NCBI GenBank assembly: GCA_965248055.1
Contig: CBDFIJ010000004.1
Coordinates: 128,001-192,000, forward strand
Source: Candidatus Multivoradales bacterium
GTDB lineage: Bacteria > Acidobacteriota > Thermoanaerobaculia > Multivoradales > JAHEKO01
Direction: 5' to 3'
Length of the DNA stretch: 64,000 bases
Position numbers and translations under genes: made by a program. Below, piece after piece: positions 14,102-61,281 of this stretch. How positions within the stretch are numbered: position 1 is the stretch's first letter; the number at the start of each line of letters is the position of its first letter. Under the pieces are notes generated by a model. The model was not told where the DNA came from, did not search any database, and was given only the letters and a program-made list of their open reading frames with translations.

Positions 14102-14139
14102 TGAAGCTGCCCCGTTTTGGTGGACACATAGTTTAGCTC

Positions 14140-15039
14140 TCATTGAGCGAGAGCGGTTTGGTTAGCGACCGTTGCCAAAGCAGCGAGTCGGTCTTCATAG
14201 GCGACAGGACTCAAGCCTCCGAGGCTTGAGTGGCGTCGCTTGCGGTTGTAGAAAATTTCGATGTAATCGAAGAGGTCTCTTTGAGCTTGTCGACGACTGG
14301 TATAGCGCACATGATGCACCCGCTCGGTCTTCAAGCTGGCAAAGAAGCTCTCCATCGGTGCGTTGTCCCAGCAGTTGCCTTTACGGCTCATACTCACCGT
14401 GATGCGGGCATCTTCGAGTTTCTTGCGATAGTCAGACGCTGCGTACTGACTACCGCGATCAGAGTGGTGCAGGAGCCTGCCAGGATCTGGCCGGCGCTCA
14501 TAGAGAGCGCTCTCCAGGGCCCGTAGAGTCAAATCCTGAGTCAGACGAGTACTGGTCGAAAAACCAACAATACGCCGGGACCCAAGGTCCATGATCGCTG
14601 CCAAGTACAGCCAGCCTTCAGTGGTGGGAATGTAGGTTATATCGCTCAACCACACATGATTGGGATCTTCGACCTCGAAACGGCGGTCCAATACATTCGC
14701 AGCCACCGGATGCTTATGTTTCGACTGCGTCGTTACCCGAAACTGCTTGGCCCGTATTGAGCGAATGCCGTGATTGTGCATTAACCGAGTCACACGCTTG
14801 CGGCTGTGGCAAAACCCCTGGTCTCGCAACTCACCATGGATTCTAGGGCTCCCATACGTCCGCCGACTCTCGGAGTTAATCATACGAATCTGAGTCAGAA
14901 GTCGGCGATCTTCTCGGCCACGTCGGCACTCTGGGCGACGCACCCAAGCGTAATAGCCGCTGCGTGACACCTCCAGCACACGACACATGACGAGTACAGA
15001 ATACTCGCGCCGATGACGGCGAATGAAATCGAATCTCAT
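14140..15039 (-). CDS. IS3-family transposase OrfB
   Basis: YGSPRI, WLSDITYI.T.EGWLYLA, HHSDRGSQY, KGNCWDNAPMESFFASLK. Confidence 0.96.
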   Translation of the reverse strand: MRFDFIRRHRREYSVLVMCRVLEVSRSGYYAWVRRPECRRGREDRRLLTQIRMINSESRRTYGSPRIHGELRDQGFCHSRKRVTRLMHNHGIRSIRAKQFRVTTQSKHKHPVAANVLDRRFEVEDPNHVWLSDITYIPTTEGWLYLAAIMDLGSRRIVGFSTSTRLTQDLTLRALESALYERRPDPGRLLHHSDRGSQYAASDYRKKLEDARITVSMSRKGNCWDNAPMESFFASLKTERVHHVRYTSRRQAQRDLFDYIEIFYNRKRRHSSLGGLSPVAYEDRLAALATVANQTALAQ

Positions 15040-57001: not shown

Positions 57002-58927
57002 CTAGCGCACCACCGAGCCGTTGGGCACGCCCTCTTCCACCCGCAGGACTCTGGGCGAGCCGTCAGCGTCGACAGCCGCCAAGACCATGCCCTGGGACTC
57101 GACCCCCATCAGTTTGGCGGGTTTGAGGTTGGCGACCACGGTAATTTTCCAACCGAGCAGTTCTTCAGGTTGATAGACCTTGGCAACGCCAGCGACCACG
57201 GTCCGGGGGTGGTCTTCACCCAAATCAACGGTGAGTTTCAGTAGTTTGTTCGCTTTGGGGATCGCTTCAGCTGCGGTCACCGTGCCGACCCGAAGTTGTA
57301 CTTTGCCGAAGTCTTCAATGCTGATCATGCCATCATCTCCATCGTCCCGAGCTATTTCACTCTCGAGGTTGTCAGCAGCCAAATATTGTTCTTTGTCGAT
57401 GCGCGGAAAGAGCCCATCGACCTTGACGATTTCTCGTCCGGTGGGCAGTCCACCCCACGACAGGGCATCGAAACCGGTCACCGGTTCCGTGATCCCCAAC
57501 GAAGTAAGAATCTGCGGCGCAGTCTCAGGCAGGATCGGTACCAGAGCACTGGCAACAATGCGCAGCGACTCCATCGCGTTCCACACCACCCTGGAGACTC
57601 TTTCGCTGGCACCCTCTTCTTTGATCAGTTTCCACGGCTCACGCTCCACCAGATACTGATTGGCCGCCGAAAGCAGCTTCCACAACTCGCGCAGTGCGGT
57701 CTGAAAAGCGAATTCATCCATTGCCGCGCGGTACCCAGCCACCGACTCCGCAGCGATCGCCATCAACGGATTGTTGTCGCAGGAATGAGGTGGCGTCTTG
57801 CCGTCGAATAGCTTGCGACTCAAGGTCACCAAACGACTCAAGGTATTGCCTAGATCGTTGGCCAAGTCACTGTTGAAGCGATCTACAAAAGCCTCGTCAG
57901 AAAAATTGGCGTCCTGCCCGAAGACCATTTCGCGCAACAAGAAATAGCGTAGAGCGTCGCTGCCGAATGTTTTCACCAGCGGCGCGGGGCGAGCGATGTT
58001 GCCGATAGATTTGGACATTTTGCGGGTGTCGCGCAGCCACCAACCGTGCGCCCACACCGTGGTGGGCAACGGTAATCCCGCCGACAGTAATAATGCCGGC
58101 CAGTAGACCGCGTGGAAACGAAGAATGTCCTTGCCCACCAACTGCACCTGTTGGGCCCCCTCCGCCTGCCAGAACTCTTGATAGAGATCGTCACCCTCGG
58201 TGCCCATTCCCAGTGCAGTAATGTAGTTGGACAGCGCGTCCAACCAGACATAGACCGTGTGCCCAGGATAGCCGGGAAATGGAATCCCCCAGTCGACACT
58301 GGTGCGTGACACGGAGAGATCGCGCAGCCCGGACTCAATAAAACTACGTACCTCGTTGCGCCGCGTCGCAGGCTGTACTGCCTCAGGATTGTTGTCCAAC
58401 CAGTCCAACAAGGGTTTCTGATACTTGGACAGCCGAAAGAAAACGTTCTCTTCTGATTTCCACTCGGCTTCGGTGTCATGAACCGGACAGCGATTGTCGG
58501 GCTGGGATAGTTCCTTGTCGGTGTAGAAGGTCTCGCAGCCGGTGCAATACCAACCCTCGTGCCGATCCAAATAAAGATCCCCGGCCTGTTCGATTCGACC
58601 GATCAGCGCTTCGACTCCAGAGCGATGGCGTGTTTCGGAAGTGCGAATAAAGTCGTCGTGGGAGATACCCAACTGCTCCCAGGTACGGAGATAGACATCG
58701 ACCACCCGGTCGGCGAGCTGCAACGGGGTCACCCCTTGCTCTTCTGCAGCGCGCTCGATCTTCTGCCCGTGCTCGTCGGTGCCGGTCAGGAAATAGACGC
58801 TCTCCCCCACCAGCCTGCGGTATCGAGCCACAGTATCCGCCACCAAGGTGGTGTAGTAGTGGCCCACATGAGGCACGTCATTGACGTAATAGATCGGTGT
58901 GGTGATGTAGAAACGCTGGGCTGGCAT
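57002..58927 (-). CDS. metG: Methionine--tRNA ligase with C-terminal tRNA-binding domain
   Basis: TTPIYYVN..PHVGH, GTDEHG.K, YVWLDAL.NY, KMSKS, ANLKPAKLMG..SQGM. Confidence 0.98.
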   Translation of the reverse strand: MPAQRFYITTPIYYVNDVPHVGHYYTTLVADTVARYRRLVGESVYFLTGTDEHGQKIERAAEEQGVTPLQLADRVVDVYLRTWEQLGISHDDFIRTSETRHRSGVEALIGRIEQAGDLYLDRHEGWYCTGCETFYTDKELSQPDNRCPVHDTEAEWKSEENVFFRLSKYQKPLLDWLDNNPEAVQPATRRNEVRSFIESGLRDLSVSRTSVDWGIPFPGYPGHTVYVWLDALSNYITALGMGTEGDDLYQEFWQAEGAQQVQLVGKDILRFHAVYWPALLLSAGLPLPTTVWAHGWWLRDTRKMSKSIGNIARPAPLVKTFGSDALRYFLLREMVFGQDANFSDEAFVDRFNSDLANDLGNTLSRLVTLSRKLFDGKTPPHSCDNNPLMAIAAESVAGYRAAMDEFAFQTALRELWKLLSAANQYLVEREPWKLIKEEGASERVSRVVWNAMESLRIVASALVPILPETAPQILTSLGITEPVTGFDALSWGGLPTGREIVKVDGLFPRIDKEQYLAADNLESEIARDDGDDGMISIEDFGKVQLRVGTVTAAEAIPKANKLLKLTVDLGEDHPRTVVAGVAKVYQPEELLGWKITVVANLKPAKLMGVESQGMVLAAVDADGSPRVLRVEEGVPNGSVVR

Positions 58928-59040
58928 GGTTGAGTTGTGAGAGGTCGGTAGTGCGCCGTTTCGGTGCCGCAACTCCGTTTTTCAGCGTAAGTTTACCAGT
59001 TCAACTACAGTGCAAGTGATGCTCAAAATCCTAGATAGCT

Positions 59041-59949
59041 CTATTGCAGTTCCTGATCCTCACCGTGGTGCCGCAATCGATTCAAAGCCAAGATCTCAGT
59101 GGTCTGGAAACGAGAGCTGGTACCGCAGTATTCGCACTGGGCGGTGACCTCGTCGGTCTGAGCCAGGTGACGCAAATCTTCCTTGGGCAGGCTTTGCAGT
59201 CGTTGCAGCAAGCTGATGCGCTTGCATCCACAGCGGTATTCCAAGACATCTTGCTCGCGCGTCGAACTGCCTAACCCAGCCAGGACTCGTTGCAACGCCC
59301 CTTCGAGCCCATACTCCTGGAGATCTACGCTCCAAGAACCCGCCCTTTCCAAATTGCGCTCCAAAGTTCGCACTACAGAATCCGGGGTACCCGGGAGTGC
59401 TTCTACCAAGTAGCCTCCCGCCGAGCCAATCCCATCGCGGGTTAAGAACTCGCCAACCGCCAGCACCGAGCGGGTCTGTTCGCTTTGCAGAAGGTAGTGA
59501 GCGATGTCCGAACCGATTTCCCCGGTGACCAGTTCTGAATGACTGTTGAAGGTTCCCCTCTTTCCCTCGCGAGTCACTTCCAAGACGCCGGAGCCCACCG
59601 CCTCCTGTAGCCGCTGCCCCTGCTCTCCAAAATGGGCATTGGGGACTCCAGGGTTCCCCACCCGGCCGCGAAATCGTTGTTGGGAAATCTCTGCGCTCAC
59701 CCCGCCCAACGGACCATCGCCGCGCACTCGTAGTTCCAGTCGCTCTGGGGCTCGCAGTGCATGCCGATAGAGCAAAGCGACCCCGCCCAGGGCTCTACCG
59801 AGCGCAGTGGTCGCCACCGGCCCTAGGTCTCGGAGAGATCGCGCAGTTTCCAAAGGGCCGCTGACATCAACCGCCACCCATCTGAGCCACTCCTCACCGG
59901 CCATCCCGGCGAGCAGAGTCCCTTGTTCTGTTGTCTCGTCCATCACCAT
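59041..59949 (-). CDS. hslO: Hsp33 redox-regulated chaperone
   Basis: ALGR, GDGPLG, LVTGEI..DIA.Y...SEQ, zinc centre CGC...CEYC. Confidence 0.92.
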   Translation of the reverse strand: MVMDETTEQGTLLAGMAGEEWLRWVAVDVSGPLETARSLRDLGPVATTALGRALGGVALLYRHALRAPERLELRVRGDGPLGGVSAEISQQRFRGRVGNPGVPNAHFGEQGQRLQEAVGSGVLEVTREGKRGTFNSHSELVTGEIGSDIAHYLLQSEQTRSVLAVGEFLTRDGIGSAGGYLVEALPGTPDSVVRTLERNLERAGSWSVDLQEYGLEGALQRVLAGLGSSTREQDVLEYRCGCKRISLLQRLQSLPKEDLRHLAQTDEVTAQCEYCGTSSRFQTTEILALNRLRHHGEDQELQ

Positions 59950-60054
59950 CCCTCTTATGGATCCTGCCTAAGAGCCATGCTTATGAAACCCTGCCCCGCT
60001 TACAAGAACTCCATCCACCGAATTGGCAACCCCATCTTAGGCGGACCCAACAAG

Positions 60055-61080
60055 CTACAGTTGACCCAACAGCAACCCCAGTTCCGCCATGCGATGGGCA
60101 TACCCCAGTTCGTTGTCGTAGAACGCCGACAGCTTCACCAAGGTGTTGCCGTCGGTAGGTACTGCCAACACCTGATCCGAGATCATCGCTGAGTAGGACT
60201 CACCGACGCAGTCTCTGGAACATTGGTACTCGGAACCAAAGGTAGCGATGGTGCCCATTTCGGTGGAAGCGTTGATCTGGGCAACGTTGTCGTGTACCGC
60301 TTCGACCAATTCCTGCTGGCTGTGTTCGCCAGCTAAGAGAAACACGGCTTCGACCACGCTGCCAGTGTCGGTGGGAACTCTCAACGCGGTGCCATTCAAC
60401 TTGCCAGCTAGGTGTGGCAACACCTTGCCCACCGCCTTGGCTGCTCCGGTGGTGGTTGGAATGATGTTGTTCAATGCACCTCGTCGCTTGGCGCCACCAA
60501 AGGAGTCGACCACGCTCTGACTGGCGGTCACCGCGTGGGTGGTGGTCATCAGCCCGGCCACAACTTCAAACGAAAGGTCTAATGCTTTGGCCATCGGAGC
60601 CAGGCAGTTGGTGGTTCAACTGGCGTTTGACACCAACCGATCTTCGGCGCTGAGAATCTGATGATTGACTCCCAGCACTACCGTTTTGGTGTCGTCCTTG
60701 GTCGGCGCCGAGATCGCCACTTTGCCAGCGCCCGCCTCAAGATGCGCCGTTGCCTTTTCCGAGCTCAAGTAGTGCCCGGTGCACTCCAGCACCAGGTCGA
60801 CACCTTGATCGCCCCAGGGAATCTGGCTGGCGTCGCGGCAGCCATGAATGTGGACCTCTTGATCGCCGAGACGCAGTAGATCTGGACGGATGATCTCGAC
60901 CGCCACCGGAAACCGTCCGTAGACCGAATCTCGATGCAGCGCTGCCGCCAGATCCTCGACCGGAACGATGTCATTGGCCGCGACAAATTCGATCCGATCA
61001 GCGAAATCGCTGACCATCACCCGCGCGATTCCCTGGCCCATCCGTCCCAATCCGTTCAATCCAATTCTTAACCGTGCCAT
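60055..61080 (-). CDS. gap: Type I glyceraldehyde-3-phosphate dehydrogenase (341 aa) with in-frame TGA at the catalytic Cys; candidate selenoprotein
   Basis: ORFs 60616-61080 and 60055-60594 are in one frame, separated by a single TGA (60616-60618) in SNAS*TTNCLAP. Motifs G.NG.GR.G, ECTG, ISAP, H..T..Q, TTGAAKA, RVPT and YDNE.GY are all intact. Confidence 0.9.
60583..60606 (-). promoter_or_regulatory. Candidate bacterial SECIS-like hairpin
   Basis: mRNA UGC-C-UGGC-UCCGAUG-GCCA-AA-GCA begins 10 nt after the UGA. Imperfect; the loop G is not at the usual first or second position. Confidence 0.35.
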
Positions 61081-61129
61081 CGTCGCCCCTTTATTTGCAC
61101 CGGATTCAAAACAGATCTTGGAGCCGCGA

Positions 61130-61281
61130 TAAAGCTAACCCGTTTTAGTGGACACATAGTTTAGCCCTCATTGAGCGAGAGCAGTTTGGTTAGCGACCGT
61201 TGCCGAGGTAGAAAATCGAGTTTCGTAGGCGACAGGACTCAAGCCTCCGAGGCTTGAGTGTGAAGCTGCCCCGTTTTGGTG
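61130..61281 (-). mobile_element. Remnant ends of the IS3 copy B family
   Basis: 61130-61260 is a diverged copy of 14102-14231, followed by a second IR start TGAAGCTGCCCCGTTTTGGTG (61261-61281). No transposase. Confidence 0.88.

What the first reader, a model, noticed from the sequence alone, without database searches (positions are those of the whole stretch)
60055..61080. Candidate natural selenocysteine GAPDH: UGA exactly at the catalytic cysteine
Seen: the ORF track splits this gene, but both halves are in the same frame. The minus strand reads TCA AAC GCC AGT TGA ACC ACC AAC TGC CTG GCT CCG = S-N-A-S-*-T-T-N-C-L-A-P. The single internal stop (codon 155 of 341) aligns with the invariant nucleophile of NASCTTNC (E. 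coli Cys149). There are no frameshifts or other stops, and the catalytic His, TTGAA, RVPT and YDNE motifs downstream are retained. Established: a UGA aligned to a conserved redox-active Cys is the classic selenoprotein signature, and engineered Sec149 GAPDH has been reported to gain peroxidase activity. I do not know of a natural GAPDH selenoprotein family. Inference: this may be a Sec-GAPDH with a UxxxC site, or a UGA-decoded-as-Cys enzyme. Alternative: TGY to TGA is a single-base change, so a nonsense mutation or assembly error remains possible.
Basis: partly seen in the sequence, partly recalled or inferred. Interest (0 to 1): 0.93.

Follow-up and report, generated by a model that had tools for sequence, protein, structure and literature searches.

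The report
UGA at GAPDH catalytic cysteine codon
A GAPDH-like gene in a selenium-using bacterium has a UGA stop codon exactly where its catalytic cysteine should be; this is either a very recent knockout mutation or the first natural selenocysteine GAPDH, the evidence leans to the knockout, and one public contig could settle it.

Summary
A 341-codon GAPDH-like frame (window 61080..60055, minus strand) has one in-frame TGA at codon 155, in S-N-A-S-*-T-T-N-C. Independent contigs of three runs of one sample show the same TGA.

For selenocysteine:
- The genome has tRNA-Sec, selA, selB and selD.
- At least eight other TGA-containing selenoprotein genes are present.
- Only 1 of 102 possible stop-creating substitutions in this gene hits this codon.
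- Against a ~91%-identical relative (run X5), codons 191-341, downstream of the TGA, give dN/dS of about 0.05.

Against selenocysteine:
- The only hairpin downstream of the TGA also occurs in 49 of 166 ordinary Cys-type GAPDH genes.
- That hairpin lacks the G[G/U] loop found in 8 of 8 other selenoprotein genes of this genome.
- All 21 subfamily homologues that cover the site encode Cys.
- True selenoprotein families of this lineage keep their TGA in every homologue found.
- A gap-pgk operon supplies a second GAPDH.

Verdict: a recent nonsense allele of an accessory paralogue (about 0.55), natural Sec-GAPDH about 0.30. The X5 codon at 60616-60618 would decide; it was cut from the output.

The parts
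60055..61080 (-). GAPDH-like gene, 341 codons plus TAG, read through one internal TGA. It belongs to a divergent subfamily with an ECSRDCVGE motif and a shortened FGGxK(N/R)R loop.
   Evidence: (TIGR01534 331.8 bits, cut-off 367.2).
60616..60618 (-). In-frame TGA at codon 155, aligned with the catalytic Cys of SNASCTTNC.
   Evidence: Cys sits at this column in 21 of 21 subfamily homologues that cover it. The TGA is identical in contigs of X1-X3.
60619..61080 (-). 5' half: the 154-codon NAD-binding (Rossmann) domain ORF that ends at the TGA.
   Evidence: (Gp_dh_N 5-105).
60055..60615 (-). 3' half: the catalytic domain, codons 156-341 plus stop. The listed ORF starts at Met163 (60594).
   Evidence: Gp_dh_C 160-307. 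Against the X5 contig, codons 191-341 show 22 synonymous and 4 non-synonymous differences.
60583..60606 (-). Hairpin UGC-C-UGGCU-[CCGAU]-GGCCA-AA-GCA, with its loop 19-23 nt after the TGA. It is not a specific SECIS.
   Evidence: (z -0.56 and -0.08 against shuffles); the same hairpin occurs in 49 of 166 Cys-type GAPDH genes; it fails the G[G/U] loop rule.
59041..59949 (-). hslO (Hsp33 redox-regulated chaperone), 105 nt downstream on the same strand. This side is also syntenic in the X5 relative.
   Evidence: (PF01430, 183 bits). No terminator-like site lies between the two genes.
61132..61260 (.). A repeat of about 130 nt, about 50 nt upstream of the start codon. Homology with the X5 contig ends at the start codon.
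   Evidence: 7 further copies in G000, 79-93% identity; 8-10 times the local depth; X5 loose end at 61080; no Rfam match.

Best explanation
The gene is an accessory GAPDH-like paralogue. It belongs to a divergent subfamily otherwise seen, in Cys form, in metagenomes and in MAGs that their sources name Spirochaetales or Spirochaetaceae. In the sampled population its catalytic Cys codon (TGC or TGT) has changed by one transversion to TGA.

No SelB-type hairpin follows the codon. The ribosome most likely terminates there and releases a 154-residue Rossmann fragment, so this is a young null allele.

Shown: the TGA, its position, the missing lineage-type SECIS, Cys in all other homologues, and a second GAPDH in a gap-pgk operon.

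Inferred: that translation terminates at the TGA, and that the mutation is recent. From dN/dS, it covers at most about a fifth of the branch since the split from the X5 relative.
For: (1) No specific recoding signal.
- The 50- and 70-nt stretches after the TGA fold no better than shuffles (z -0.08 and -0.56).
- The one well-placed hairpin (loop CCGAU) sits at the same place in 49 of 166 ordinary Cys-type GAPDH genes. That includes 29 of 90 from loci with GC of at least 0.5, some with the identical CCGAU loop.
- A hairpin of that size occurs after 8.7% of all 102,661 UGA triplets of the chromosome.

(2) The other eight selenoprotein genes of this genome all have a stem with a G[G/U] loop. They are SelD, FdhA, SelW-like, Prx-like, DUF3179, two AhpD/CMD-like and a PQQ-like gene. 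Seven of the loops are GGUC(U). The GAPDH site fails that rule, which 512 of 1500 random UGA sites pass.

(3) Real selenoprotein families of this lineage keep the TGA.
- Prx-like: TGA in all 17 matches, found in 16 of 46 genomes, with a conserved GCAGCUC-G[G/U]N-GAGCUGC hairpin in the 12 genes examined.
- PQQ-like: TGA at the aligned position in 6 of 6 genes, with a GGUC hairpin.
- The GAPDH TGA is a singleton: 21 of 21 subfamily homologues covering the site encode Cys.

(4) The gene can be spared. A second GAPDH sits directly upstream of pgk (C4:2027573-2029731), and the same operon exists in the genus-mate G001.

(5) The lineage is losing gap paralogues. The tandem gap pair found in G001 and most searched relatives is gone, and IS5-like transposase ORFs lie at the syntenic site.

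(6) GAPDH does not appear in the main text of a 2026 review, which includes a table of known and predicted prokaryotic selenoprotein families. It is also missing from the main texts of BSepDB, deep-Sep and the GOS survey (0 occurrences of 'glyceraldehyde' and 'GAPDH').
Against: - Only 1 of 102 stop-creating substitutions (1 of 25 TGA-creating ones) hits the catalytic Cys codon. That coincidence is the classic selenoprotein signature.
- The organism uses Sec actively. It has tRNA-Sec, selA, selB, a Sec-containing selD and at least eight selenoprotein genes.
- There is no sign of decay. There is no second lesion. The gene keeps the consensus residue in all invariant and near-invariant columns listed for the 16-sequence subfamily alignment. 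Its end branch (0.49) is similar to that of its Cys sister L132 (0.41). Its GC3 of 0.687 is within one SD of the genome's long ORFs (0.644, SD 0.055).
- Codons 191-341, downstream of the TGA, differ from the X5 relative at 22 synonymous and 4 non-synonymous sites. This gives dN/dS 0.05 and dS 0.23, with 19 of 26 changes at third positions (p = 4e-5 against one third). The 3' half was therefore translated and selected until very recently, or still is.
- The TGA is the only allele in contigs of three runs of what looks like a natural mixed community.
- I examined 12 TAA- or TAG-joined frames with strong coding signal on both sides. In none did a Pfam domain span the stop: 9 had separate domains on each side and 3 had no Pfam match. 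The only other domain-spanning stop found lies in an IS transposase.
- BSepDB reports that 12.6% of its selenoprotein entries lack a canonical SECIS.
Confidence: 0.55

Rival explanations
1. Natural selenocysteine GAPDH. SelB and tRNA-Sec decode the UGA, giving a full-length enzyme with a U155-x-x-x-C159 active site. It would have arisen by a lineage-specific Cys-to-Sec conversion and would use a non-canonical SECIS, perhaps the pre-existing CLAPxAK hairpin, whose loop lies at the usual distance. Sec might protect the nucleophile from irreversible over-oxidation, or add peroxidase activity. The conserved position next to hslO (Hsp33) would fit that, but this link is inference.
For: - The TGA sits exactly at the catalytic Cys codon, 1 of 102 stop-creating changes.
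- The Sec machinery is complete, and at least eight other selenoprotein genes are present.
- SelD carries a TGA in three relatives too: G001, G012 and G046.
- dN/dS is 0.05 downstream of the TGA against the X5 relative, and start, stop and frame are conserved there.
- No other lesion; composition is native.
- The TGA is the allele in contigs of three runs.
- No domain-spanning stop was found in a non-mobile gene among the joined frames tested.
- The hairpin loop lies 18 nt after the UGA, within the 16-37 nt range of the published bacterial SECIS model.
- 12.6% of BSepDB entries lack a canonical SECIS.
- A review cites engineered Sec-GAPDH as gaining peroxidase activity (passage seen in PMC10298544).
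Against: - The hairpin is generic to GAPDH genes (49 of 166).
- It is not more stable than shuffles.
- It lacks a G in the first two loop positions, and the site fails the G[G/U] rule that 8 of 8 other genes of this genome meet.
- No TGA-bearing homologue was found: 21 of 21 covering the site have Cys.
- There is no orthologue at all in the 44 other genomes of the family or in 400 genomes of the phylum.
- GAPDH is missing from the family lists seen in main texts.
Confidence: 0.3
2. Leaky stop. The UGA is a true stop, but tRNA-Trp or tRNA-Cys occasionally misreads it. That yields a small amount of full-length protein, active only if Cys is inserted, which could keep the 3' half under some selection.
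For: The 3' half is intact and conserved. One tRNA-Cys(GCA) and one tRNA-Trp(CCA) are present. That near-cognate tRNAs can misread UGA rests on my recall, not on a call.
Against: No dedicated suppressor exists: the only UCA anticodon belongs to tRNA-Sec. TGA is a normal stop, ending 608 of 1660 long ORFs. A read-through yield of a few percent is unlikely to hold dN/dS at 0.05.
Confidence: 0.05
3. Artefact, or a minority allele promoted to consensus. The true sequence in most cells would then be TGC or TGT.
For: X1-X3 come from one sample and are probably the data behind the assembly, so they are not independent. Contigs also drop rare variants.
Against: Three separately assembled runs give the same letters over 1297 bases at depths 21-58, with no alternative contig from this organism.
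Confidence: 0.04
4. Split enzyme. The Rossmann half and a catalytic half re-initiated at Met163 are made as two polypeptides that assemble.
For: An ATG lies 8 codons after the TGA, and gene callers list the 179-aa ORF.
Against: The product starting at Met163 lacks residues 155-162. These include the nucleophile position and Cys159, so an assembled enzyme would have no catalytic residue. None of the N-terminal fragments fetched ended at ...SNAS.
Confidence: 0.03

Closest known systems
Type I phosphorylating GAPDH (TIGR01534; for example PDB 3doc, 1gd1)
   Same: Both Pfam domains are present, with full-length collinear alignment to solved GAPDHs (249.5 bits to 3doc). The SxxTTNC active-site context, the catalytic His, and the TTGAA, RVPT and YDNE motifs are there, together with an N-terminal glycine-rich GLGRMG stretch and an AANDI stretch of NAD type. 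The motif names are recalled.
   Different: The score is below the curated equivalog cut-off (331.8 against 367.2). The loop after the catalytic His is 5 residues shorter (FGGAKRRG), and an extra ECSRDC-type pair of Cys is present (QCSRDC here). The nucleophile codon is TGA. The gene forms its own clade with L132 (support 100), far from all other 227 rows of the tree (path at least 1.8).
Cys-form members of the same subfamily (L132/P0122; P0003-P0031 and P0125-P0137; three are named by their sources as Spirochaetales or Spirochaetaceae MAG proteins)
   Same: 54% identity over the full length to P0122. The C-terminal half is 51-67% identical to the top 29 hits, against about 38-45% (over nearly full coverage) for generic GAPDH. 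The diagnostic motifs are shared.
   Different: All 21 that cover the site encode Cys. L132 has different neighbours, a B12-binding radical SAM gene and no Hsp33.
Engineered Sec149 GAPDH (Boschi-Muller et al., FEBS Lett 1998; seen only as a citation and one sentence in PMC10298544)
   Same: Selenium at the GAPDH nucleophile position. The review cites it as gaining glutathione-peroxidase-like activity.
   Different: The review lists it among Cys-dependent enzymes whose sulfur was exchanged for selenium; I recall, but did not see, that no UGA or SECIS was involved. No natural counterpart appears in the texts I searched. I did not read the original paper.
Selenoproteins of the same genome and lineage derived from Cys forms (Prx-like UxxC, AhpD/CMD-like CxxU, DUF3179, SelW-like, PQQ-like)
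   Same: An in-frame TGA aligned with a functional Cys of the homologues, in a genome with the full Sec machinery.
   Different: Those genes have strong G[G/U]-loop hairpins. Where tested, they carry TGA in every homologue. The GAPDH-like gene has neither.

Membership tests
Type I GAPDH (Pfam Gp_dh_N + Gp_dh_C; NCBIfam TIGR01534) | Both GAPDH Pfam domains above the gathering score | tested here: met
   PF00044 80.8 bits (cut-off 31.7) and PF02800 117.4 bits (cut-off 24.4) on the read-through product.
Type I GAPDH (Pfam Gp_dh_N + Gp_dh_C; NCBIfam TIGR01534) | Score at or above the curated equivalog cut-off | tested here: not met
   331.8 bits against a cut-off of 367.2. The Cys-form relative P0122 also falls short (336.1), so the subfamily is GAPDH-like, not a certified equivalog.
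Type I GAPDH (Pfam Gp_dh_N + Gp_dh_C; NCBIfam TIGR01534) | Encoded catalytic Cys nucleophile in SxCTTNC | tested here: not met
   the codon is TGA. His182, Cys159, TTGAA, RVPT and YDNE are present.
Bacterial selenoprotein gene | Sec machinery in the genome (tRNA-Sec, SelA, SelB, SelD) | tested here: met
   tRNA-Sec, 75.5 bits, anticodon UCA; selA 450 bits; selB 341 bits; selD 348 bits, with its own TGA.
Bacterial selenoprotein gene | In-frame TGA aligned with Cys in homologues | tested here: met
   Cys in 21 of 21 subfamily sequences covering the column. TGC or TGT in 166 of 166 GAPDH genes of the fetched loci.
Bacterial selenoprotein gene | SECIS hairpin 16-37 nt after the UGA with G (usually G[G/U]) at the start of a small apical loop (model quoted in PMC13188914) | tested here: not met
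   no hairpin meets the G[G/U] rule, while 8 of 8 other genes of the genome do. The loose form of the rule is passed, but so do 835 of 1500 random UGA sites, so it says nothing; the visible hairpin is generic to GAPDH genes.
Bacterial selenoprotein gene | TGA-containing homologues in other Sec-using organisms | tested here: inconclusive
   None was found. The codon of the only close orthologue (X5 contig) was not shown. Three C-terminal fragments that start at the Met after CLAP (P0005, P0009, P0015) could not be traced to their DNA.
Bacterial selenoprotein gene | Selenium in the protein | not testable with these tools
   Needs 75Se labelling or mass spectrometry.
Nonsense pseudogene / null allele | Premature stop with no recoding signal | tested here: met
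Nonsense pseudogene / null allele | Relaxed selection or further lesions downstream of the stop | tested here: not met
   dN/dS 0.05 over codons 191-341; no other lesion. The allele would therefore have to be young.
Nonsense pseudogene / null allele | Sense codon at the site in the closest orthologue | not testable with these tools

The most novel reading that the evidence does not exclude
This is the first natural selenocysteine GAPDH. It would be a lineage-specific Cys-to-Sec conversion in an accessory GAPDH-like paralogue kept next to the redox chaperone gene hslO. It would be decoded through a non-canonical SECIS, possibly the hairpin that the conserved C-L-A-P-x-A-K coding sequence forms at the right distance in many GAPDH genes. 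It would give a U-x-x-x-C active site that resists over-oxidation or acts as a peroxidase.
Probability: 0.3. Interest if true: 0.85.

Novelty: already known. Interest (0 to 1): 0.45.

Why it matters
If the UGA is read as selenocysteine, three things would follow:
- It would add one of the most studied enzymes of central metabolism to the selenoproteome.
- It would give a natural test of what selenium does for a covalent-catalysis nucleophile, as opposed to a redox centre.
- It would show a Cys-to-Sec conversion caught young, using a hairpin that GAPDH genes already carry.

If it is a nonsense allele, it is a useful warning. 'TGA at the catalytic Cys in a Sec-using genome' is not enough on its own. 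The lineage's own selenoprotein genes supply the controls that such calls need: a conserved TGA and a G[G/U]-loop hairpin.

Either way the question can be decided from public data, namely one contig of run X5.

Tried and rejected
- Rfam gave nothing at the site. It is no test, because only FdhA of four control selenoprotein genes matched a SECIS family, and below the gathering score.
- Two-sided coding potential ranks the TGA joint 8th of 15,491. However, TAA- and TAG-joined frames score as high because adjacent genes share frames, so I dropped it as evidence.
- Minimum free energy after the UGA: 52% of 15,491 TGA contexts reach -8 kcal/mol or better, so this says nothing.
- The loose published SECIS rule passes 835 of 1500 random UGA sites, so this also says nothing.
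- A search for N-terminal halves ending in ...SNAS found only the window's own ORF and one 40% hit with the window's half. With L132's half, none of the 17 fetched sequences ended there.
They returned one subfamily member, L132, so closer relatives may have been missed.
- I considered that the gene replaces the lost canonical GAPDH and is therefore essential. The gap-pgk operon weakens this.
- I considered recent horizontal transfer. GC and GC3 are native.
- tRNA-Cys(UCA) or a changed genetic code is rejected.
- No RNA holder was listed among the sequencing runs, so nothing can be said about expression.
- Supplementary tables of BSepDB and deep-Sep could list GAPDH. Supplements are closed, so 'not in print' rests on the main texts and on searches.
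- Genome G002 is unpublished. It enters only the tallies, where it had no subfamily, Prx-like or PQQ-like match. No other claim rests on it.
Full report
**What is there.**
On the minus strand, ATG 61080 to TAG 60057..60055 is one frame of 341 codons. Its single internal stop is TGA at 60618..60616, codon 155, within S-N-A-S-*-T-T-N-C-L-A-P. Gene callers would split the frame into a 154-aa and a 179-aa ORF.

The read-through product carries both GAPDH Pfam domains. It aligns along its full length with solved GAPDHs (249.5 bits to 3doc). It scores 331.8 bits on TIGR01534, below the curated cut-off of 367.2.

The catalytic His and the TTGAA, RVPT and YDNE motifs are present (motif names recalled). 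Of 102 single-base changes that would create a stop in this gene, 25 of them TGA, exactly one hits the catalytic Cys codon.

**Is the TGA real?**
Logan contigs of three runs (X1-X3) cover 59900-61196 with no differing letter, at depths 21, 32 and 58. The three runs come from one sample, probably the source of the assembly. Other low-depth GAPDH fragments in the same runs show that the sample is a mixed community. An assembly or sequencing error is therefore unlikely, but these runs are not independent of the assembly.

**The organism uses selenocysteine.**
The genome G000 (3.41 Mb, 4 contigs, 97.7% complete) has:
- tRNA-Sec with anticodon UCA (75.5 bits)
- selA
- selB
- selD with its own TGA

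TGA-containing genes found by homology:
- a Prx-like redoxin (W-U-P-W-C)
- an FdhA-like molybdoenzyme
- a SelW-like protein

A search for GGUC-loop hairpins after in-frame TGAs added four more genes, each with a Pfam domain running across the TGA or flanking it:
- a DUF3179 protein
- two AhpD/CMD-like proteins (CxxU)
- a PQQ-like beta-propeller

SelD also carries a TGA in G001 (same genus), G012 (same family) and G046 (same order). The only tRNA reading UGA is tRNA-Sec. TGA ends 608 of 1660 long ORFs. A changed code or a tRNA-Cys(UCA) is therefore excluded.

**What kind of GAPDH is it?**
The gene has no orthologue in any searched relative:
- 60 relatives: best identity 46-48%, no stops in any match
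- all 44 other species of its family
- 400 genomes of its phylum

Protein searches with its halves found a distinct subfamily. Identity is 51-67% for the C-terminal half, against about 38-45% (over nearly full coverage) for generic GAPDH. The subfamily is marked by ECSRDCVGE, LNGTALRVPTDTGSVVE and a loop 5 residues shorter after the catalytic His. Its members come from metagenomes and from MAGs that their sources name Spirochaetales or Spirochaetaceae.

One full-length member was fetched as DNA (L132, 54% identity) and has Cys. In a tree of 229 GAPDH rows the window's gene pairs with L132 (support 100). Their end branches are similar (0.49 and 0.41), and the pair lies far from everything else.

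The gene's GC (0.582) and GC3 (0.687) are typical of the genome, so it is a long-resident gene.

G000 has one other GAPDH (37% identical). It lies directly upstream of pgk, as in G001.

G000 has lost the tandem gap pair found in G001 and most searched relatives. In G001 that pair includes the only copy that passes TIGR01534 (440.9 bits). IS5-like transposase ORFs lie at the syntenic site in G000.

**Evidence for a translated 3' half.**
Run X5 comes from another study. It holds a 46.8-kb contig about 91% identical to 59900-61080, with 110 differing letters. The start codon, the stop codon and the frame are conserved. The only indels inside the gene are a compensating pair 6 nt apart.

The 26 differences shown for 60058-60508 (codons 191-341) fall 19 on third, 5 on first and 2 on second codon positions. 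That is 22 synonymous and 4 non-synonymous changes, giving dS 0.23, dN 0.012 and dN/dS 0.05. The excess at third positions has p = 4e-5 against one third.

So the part downstream of the TGA has been under strong purifying selection for nearly all the time since the two lineages split. An old pseudogene is excluded. From the count of non-synonymous changes I estimate that at most about a tenth of the total path could have been neutral.

The difference table was cut at 60508, so the X5 codon at 60616-60618 could not be read.

**Evidence against selenocysteine insertion.**
- The sequence after the TGA folds no better than shuffles (z -0.56 and -0.08).
- The one well-placed hairpin is UGGCU-[CCGAU]-GGCCA, with its loop 18 nt after the UGA and about -8 kcal/mol. 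A hairpin of that size follows 8.7% of all UGA triplets.
- The decisive control concerns the same position downstream of the Cys codon. A hairpin of at least 5 bp is found there in 49 of 166 ordinary GAPDH genes from the fetched loci. That includes 29 of 90 from loci with GC of at least 0.5, several with the identical CCGAU loop. The hairpin is a by-product of coding C-L-A-P-x-A-K.
- The published bacterial SECIS model asks for a G, mostly G[G/U], in the first two loop positions (passage in PMC13188914). This loop starts with CC.
- In my implementation the site fails the G[G/U] rule, 8 of 8 other selenoprotein genes pass it, and 512 of 1500 random UGA sites pass it. Seven of the eight have GGUC(U) loops.

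**How real selenoprotein families behave in this lineage.**
- Prx-like family: 16 of 46 genomes have a homologue, and all 17 matches contain TGA. In the 12 genes examined the hairpin GCAGCUC-G[G/U]N-GAGCUGC is conserved.
- PQQ-like family: TGA at the aligned position in 6 of 6 genes, with a CCCAC-GGUC-GUGGG hairpin in the five homologues (G000's own stem is CCGC/GCGG).
- GAPDH-like subfamily: 21 of 21 sequences covering the site have Cys (13 of the 22 fetched, 7 of the 17 fetched, and L132). The other fetched sequences stop short of the site or start after it.
- Three of those fragments start exactly at the Met after CLAP (P0005, P0009, P0015). They could be hidden TGA forms, but their DNA could not be fetched.

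**Background of broken genes.**
I examined 12 TAA- or TAG-joined frames with strong coding signal on both sides. In none did a Pfam domain run across the stop: 9 had separate domains on each side, as adjacent genes do, and 3 had no Pfam match. Among the TGA-joined frames I examined, the domain-spanning cases were the selenoprotein genes, this gene and one IS transposase. This test was partial.

**Weighing.**
For Sec:
- the position coincidence (about 25 to 1 among TGA-creating changes)
- an active, fairly rich selenoproteome
- the intact and selected 3' half
- few nonsense genes elsewhere in the genome

Against Sec:
- failure of the lineage's SECIS rule (my estimate is about 1 to 7)
- singleton status
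- a spare GAPDH in the genome
- ongoing loss of gap paralogues
- no GAPDH in the main texts of the 2026 review, BSepDB (111 families, 57,630 entries), deep-Sep or the GOS survey (passages only, supplements closed)

Across many genomes, a chance nonsense at this codon is expected now and then. The prior for a new Sec family in GAPDH is small, because GAPDH is so widely sequenced.

My odds:
- young nonsense or null allele: about 0.55
- selenocysteine: about 0.30
- leaky read-through, artefact or split enzyme: the rest

These odds depend strongly on the priors. One base in the X5 contig would move them close to 0 or 1.

**Comparison with what is known.**
The product works like, and looks like, a type I phosphorylating GAPDH, but it fails the curated equivalog score and lacks an encoded nucleophile. 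As a selenoprotein gene it meets two defining features: the machinery, and a TGA paired with Cys in homologues. It fails one (the SECIS) and leaves one open (TGA homologues).

A review cites engineered Sec-GAPDH (Boschi-Muller 1998) as gaining peroxidase activity. I saw only that citation and one sentence.

**Limits.**
- The tallies include the unpublished genome G002.

Noticed in passing
G000:C4:1105000-1106208 (minus strand; outside the window); loci L264-L269: A PQQ_2/BamB-like beta-propeller gene has an in-frame TGA at codon 66 (TKG-U-VFIAPAV), between its signal-peptide-like N-terminus and the propeller, followed by a CCGC-GGUC-GCGG hairpin. All 5 homologues in 4 relatives (34-39% identity) carry TGA at the aligned position (four with DTGG before the TGA; all with [VI][FY]V[TS]PTV after it), with a CCCAC-GGUC-GUGGG hairpin. 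'PQQ' and 'propeller' do not occur in the main text of the 2026 review, so this may be an undescribed selenoprotein family.
   Followed up: partly
window 61132-61260; also about 14104-14232 in the window (C4:142104-142232): A repeat of about 130 nt lies just upstream of the GAPDH-like gene. It has 7 further copies in the chromosome (79-93% identity) and 8-10 times the local depth in the runs. It has no Rfam match. Homology with the X5 relative ends at the gene's start codon.
   Followed up: partly
G000:C4:871597-877118 compared with L224 (G001:C1:772441-782443): G000 has lost the tandem gap pair that G001 and most searched relatives carry. In G001 that pair includes the only copy passing the TIGR01534 cut-off. 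IS5-like transposase ORFs lie at the syntenic site, C4:876334-877118.
   Followed up: partly
G000:C4:3146476-3147606, 294309-294920, 1438220-1438891, 1226484-1227068, 968443-968688, 1910163-1912949, 1264907-1265959: The selenoproteome of this genome comprises DUF3179, two AhpD/CMD-like (CxxU), Prx-like (UxxC), SelW-like, FdhA-like and SelD. Gene callers would split or truncate all of them at the TGA. Six have GGUC(U) apical loops.
   Followed up: partly
G000:C4:2349376-2350431 (L250): An IS transposase has a TGA inside its integrase core (rve) domain. Among the joined frames tested, it was the only other domain-spanning stop outside the selenoprotein genes.
   Followed up: no
G000 contigs C1-C3: Three small contigs (14.8, 16.7 and 28.4 kb) have GC of 0.39-0.43, against 0.57 for the 3.35-Mb contig. 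They may be plasmids, phage or mis-binned DNA.
   Followed up: no
window 59041-59949 and 57002-58972: hslO (Hsp33) and metG lie directly downstream of the GAPDH-like gene on the same strand. The hslO side is syntenic in the X5 relative; the upstream side is not.
   Followed up: partly
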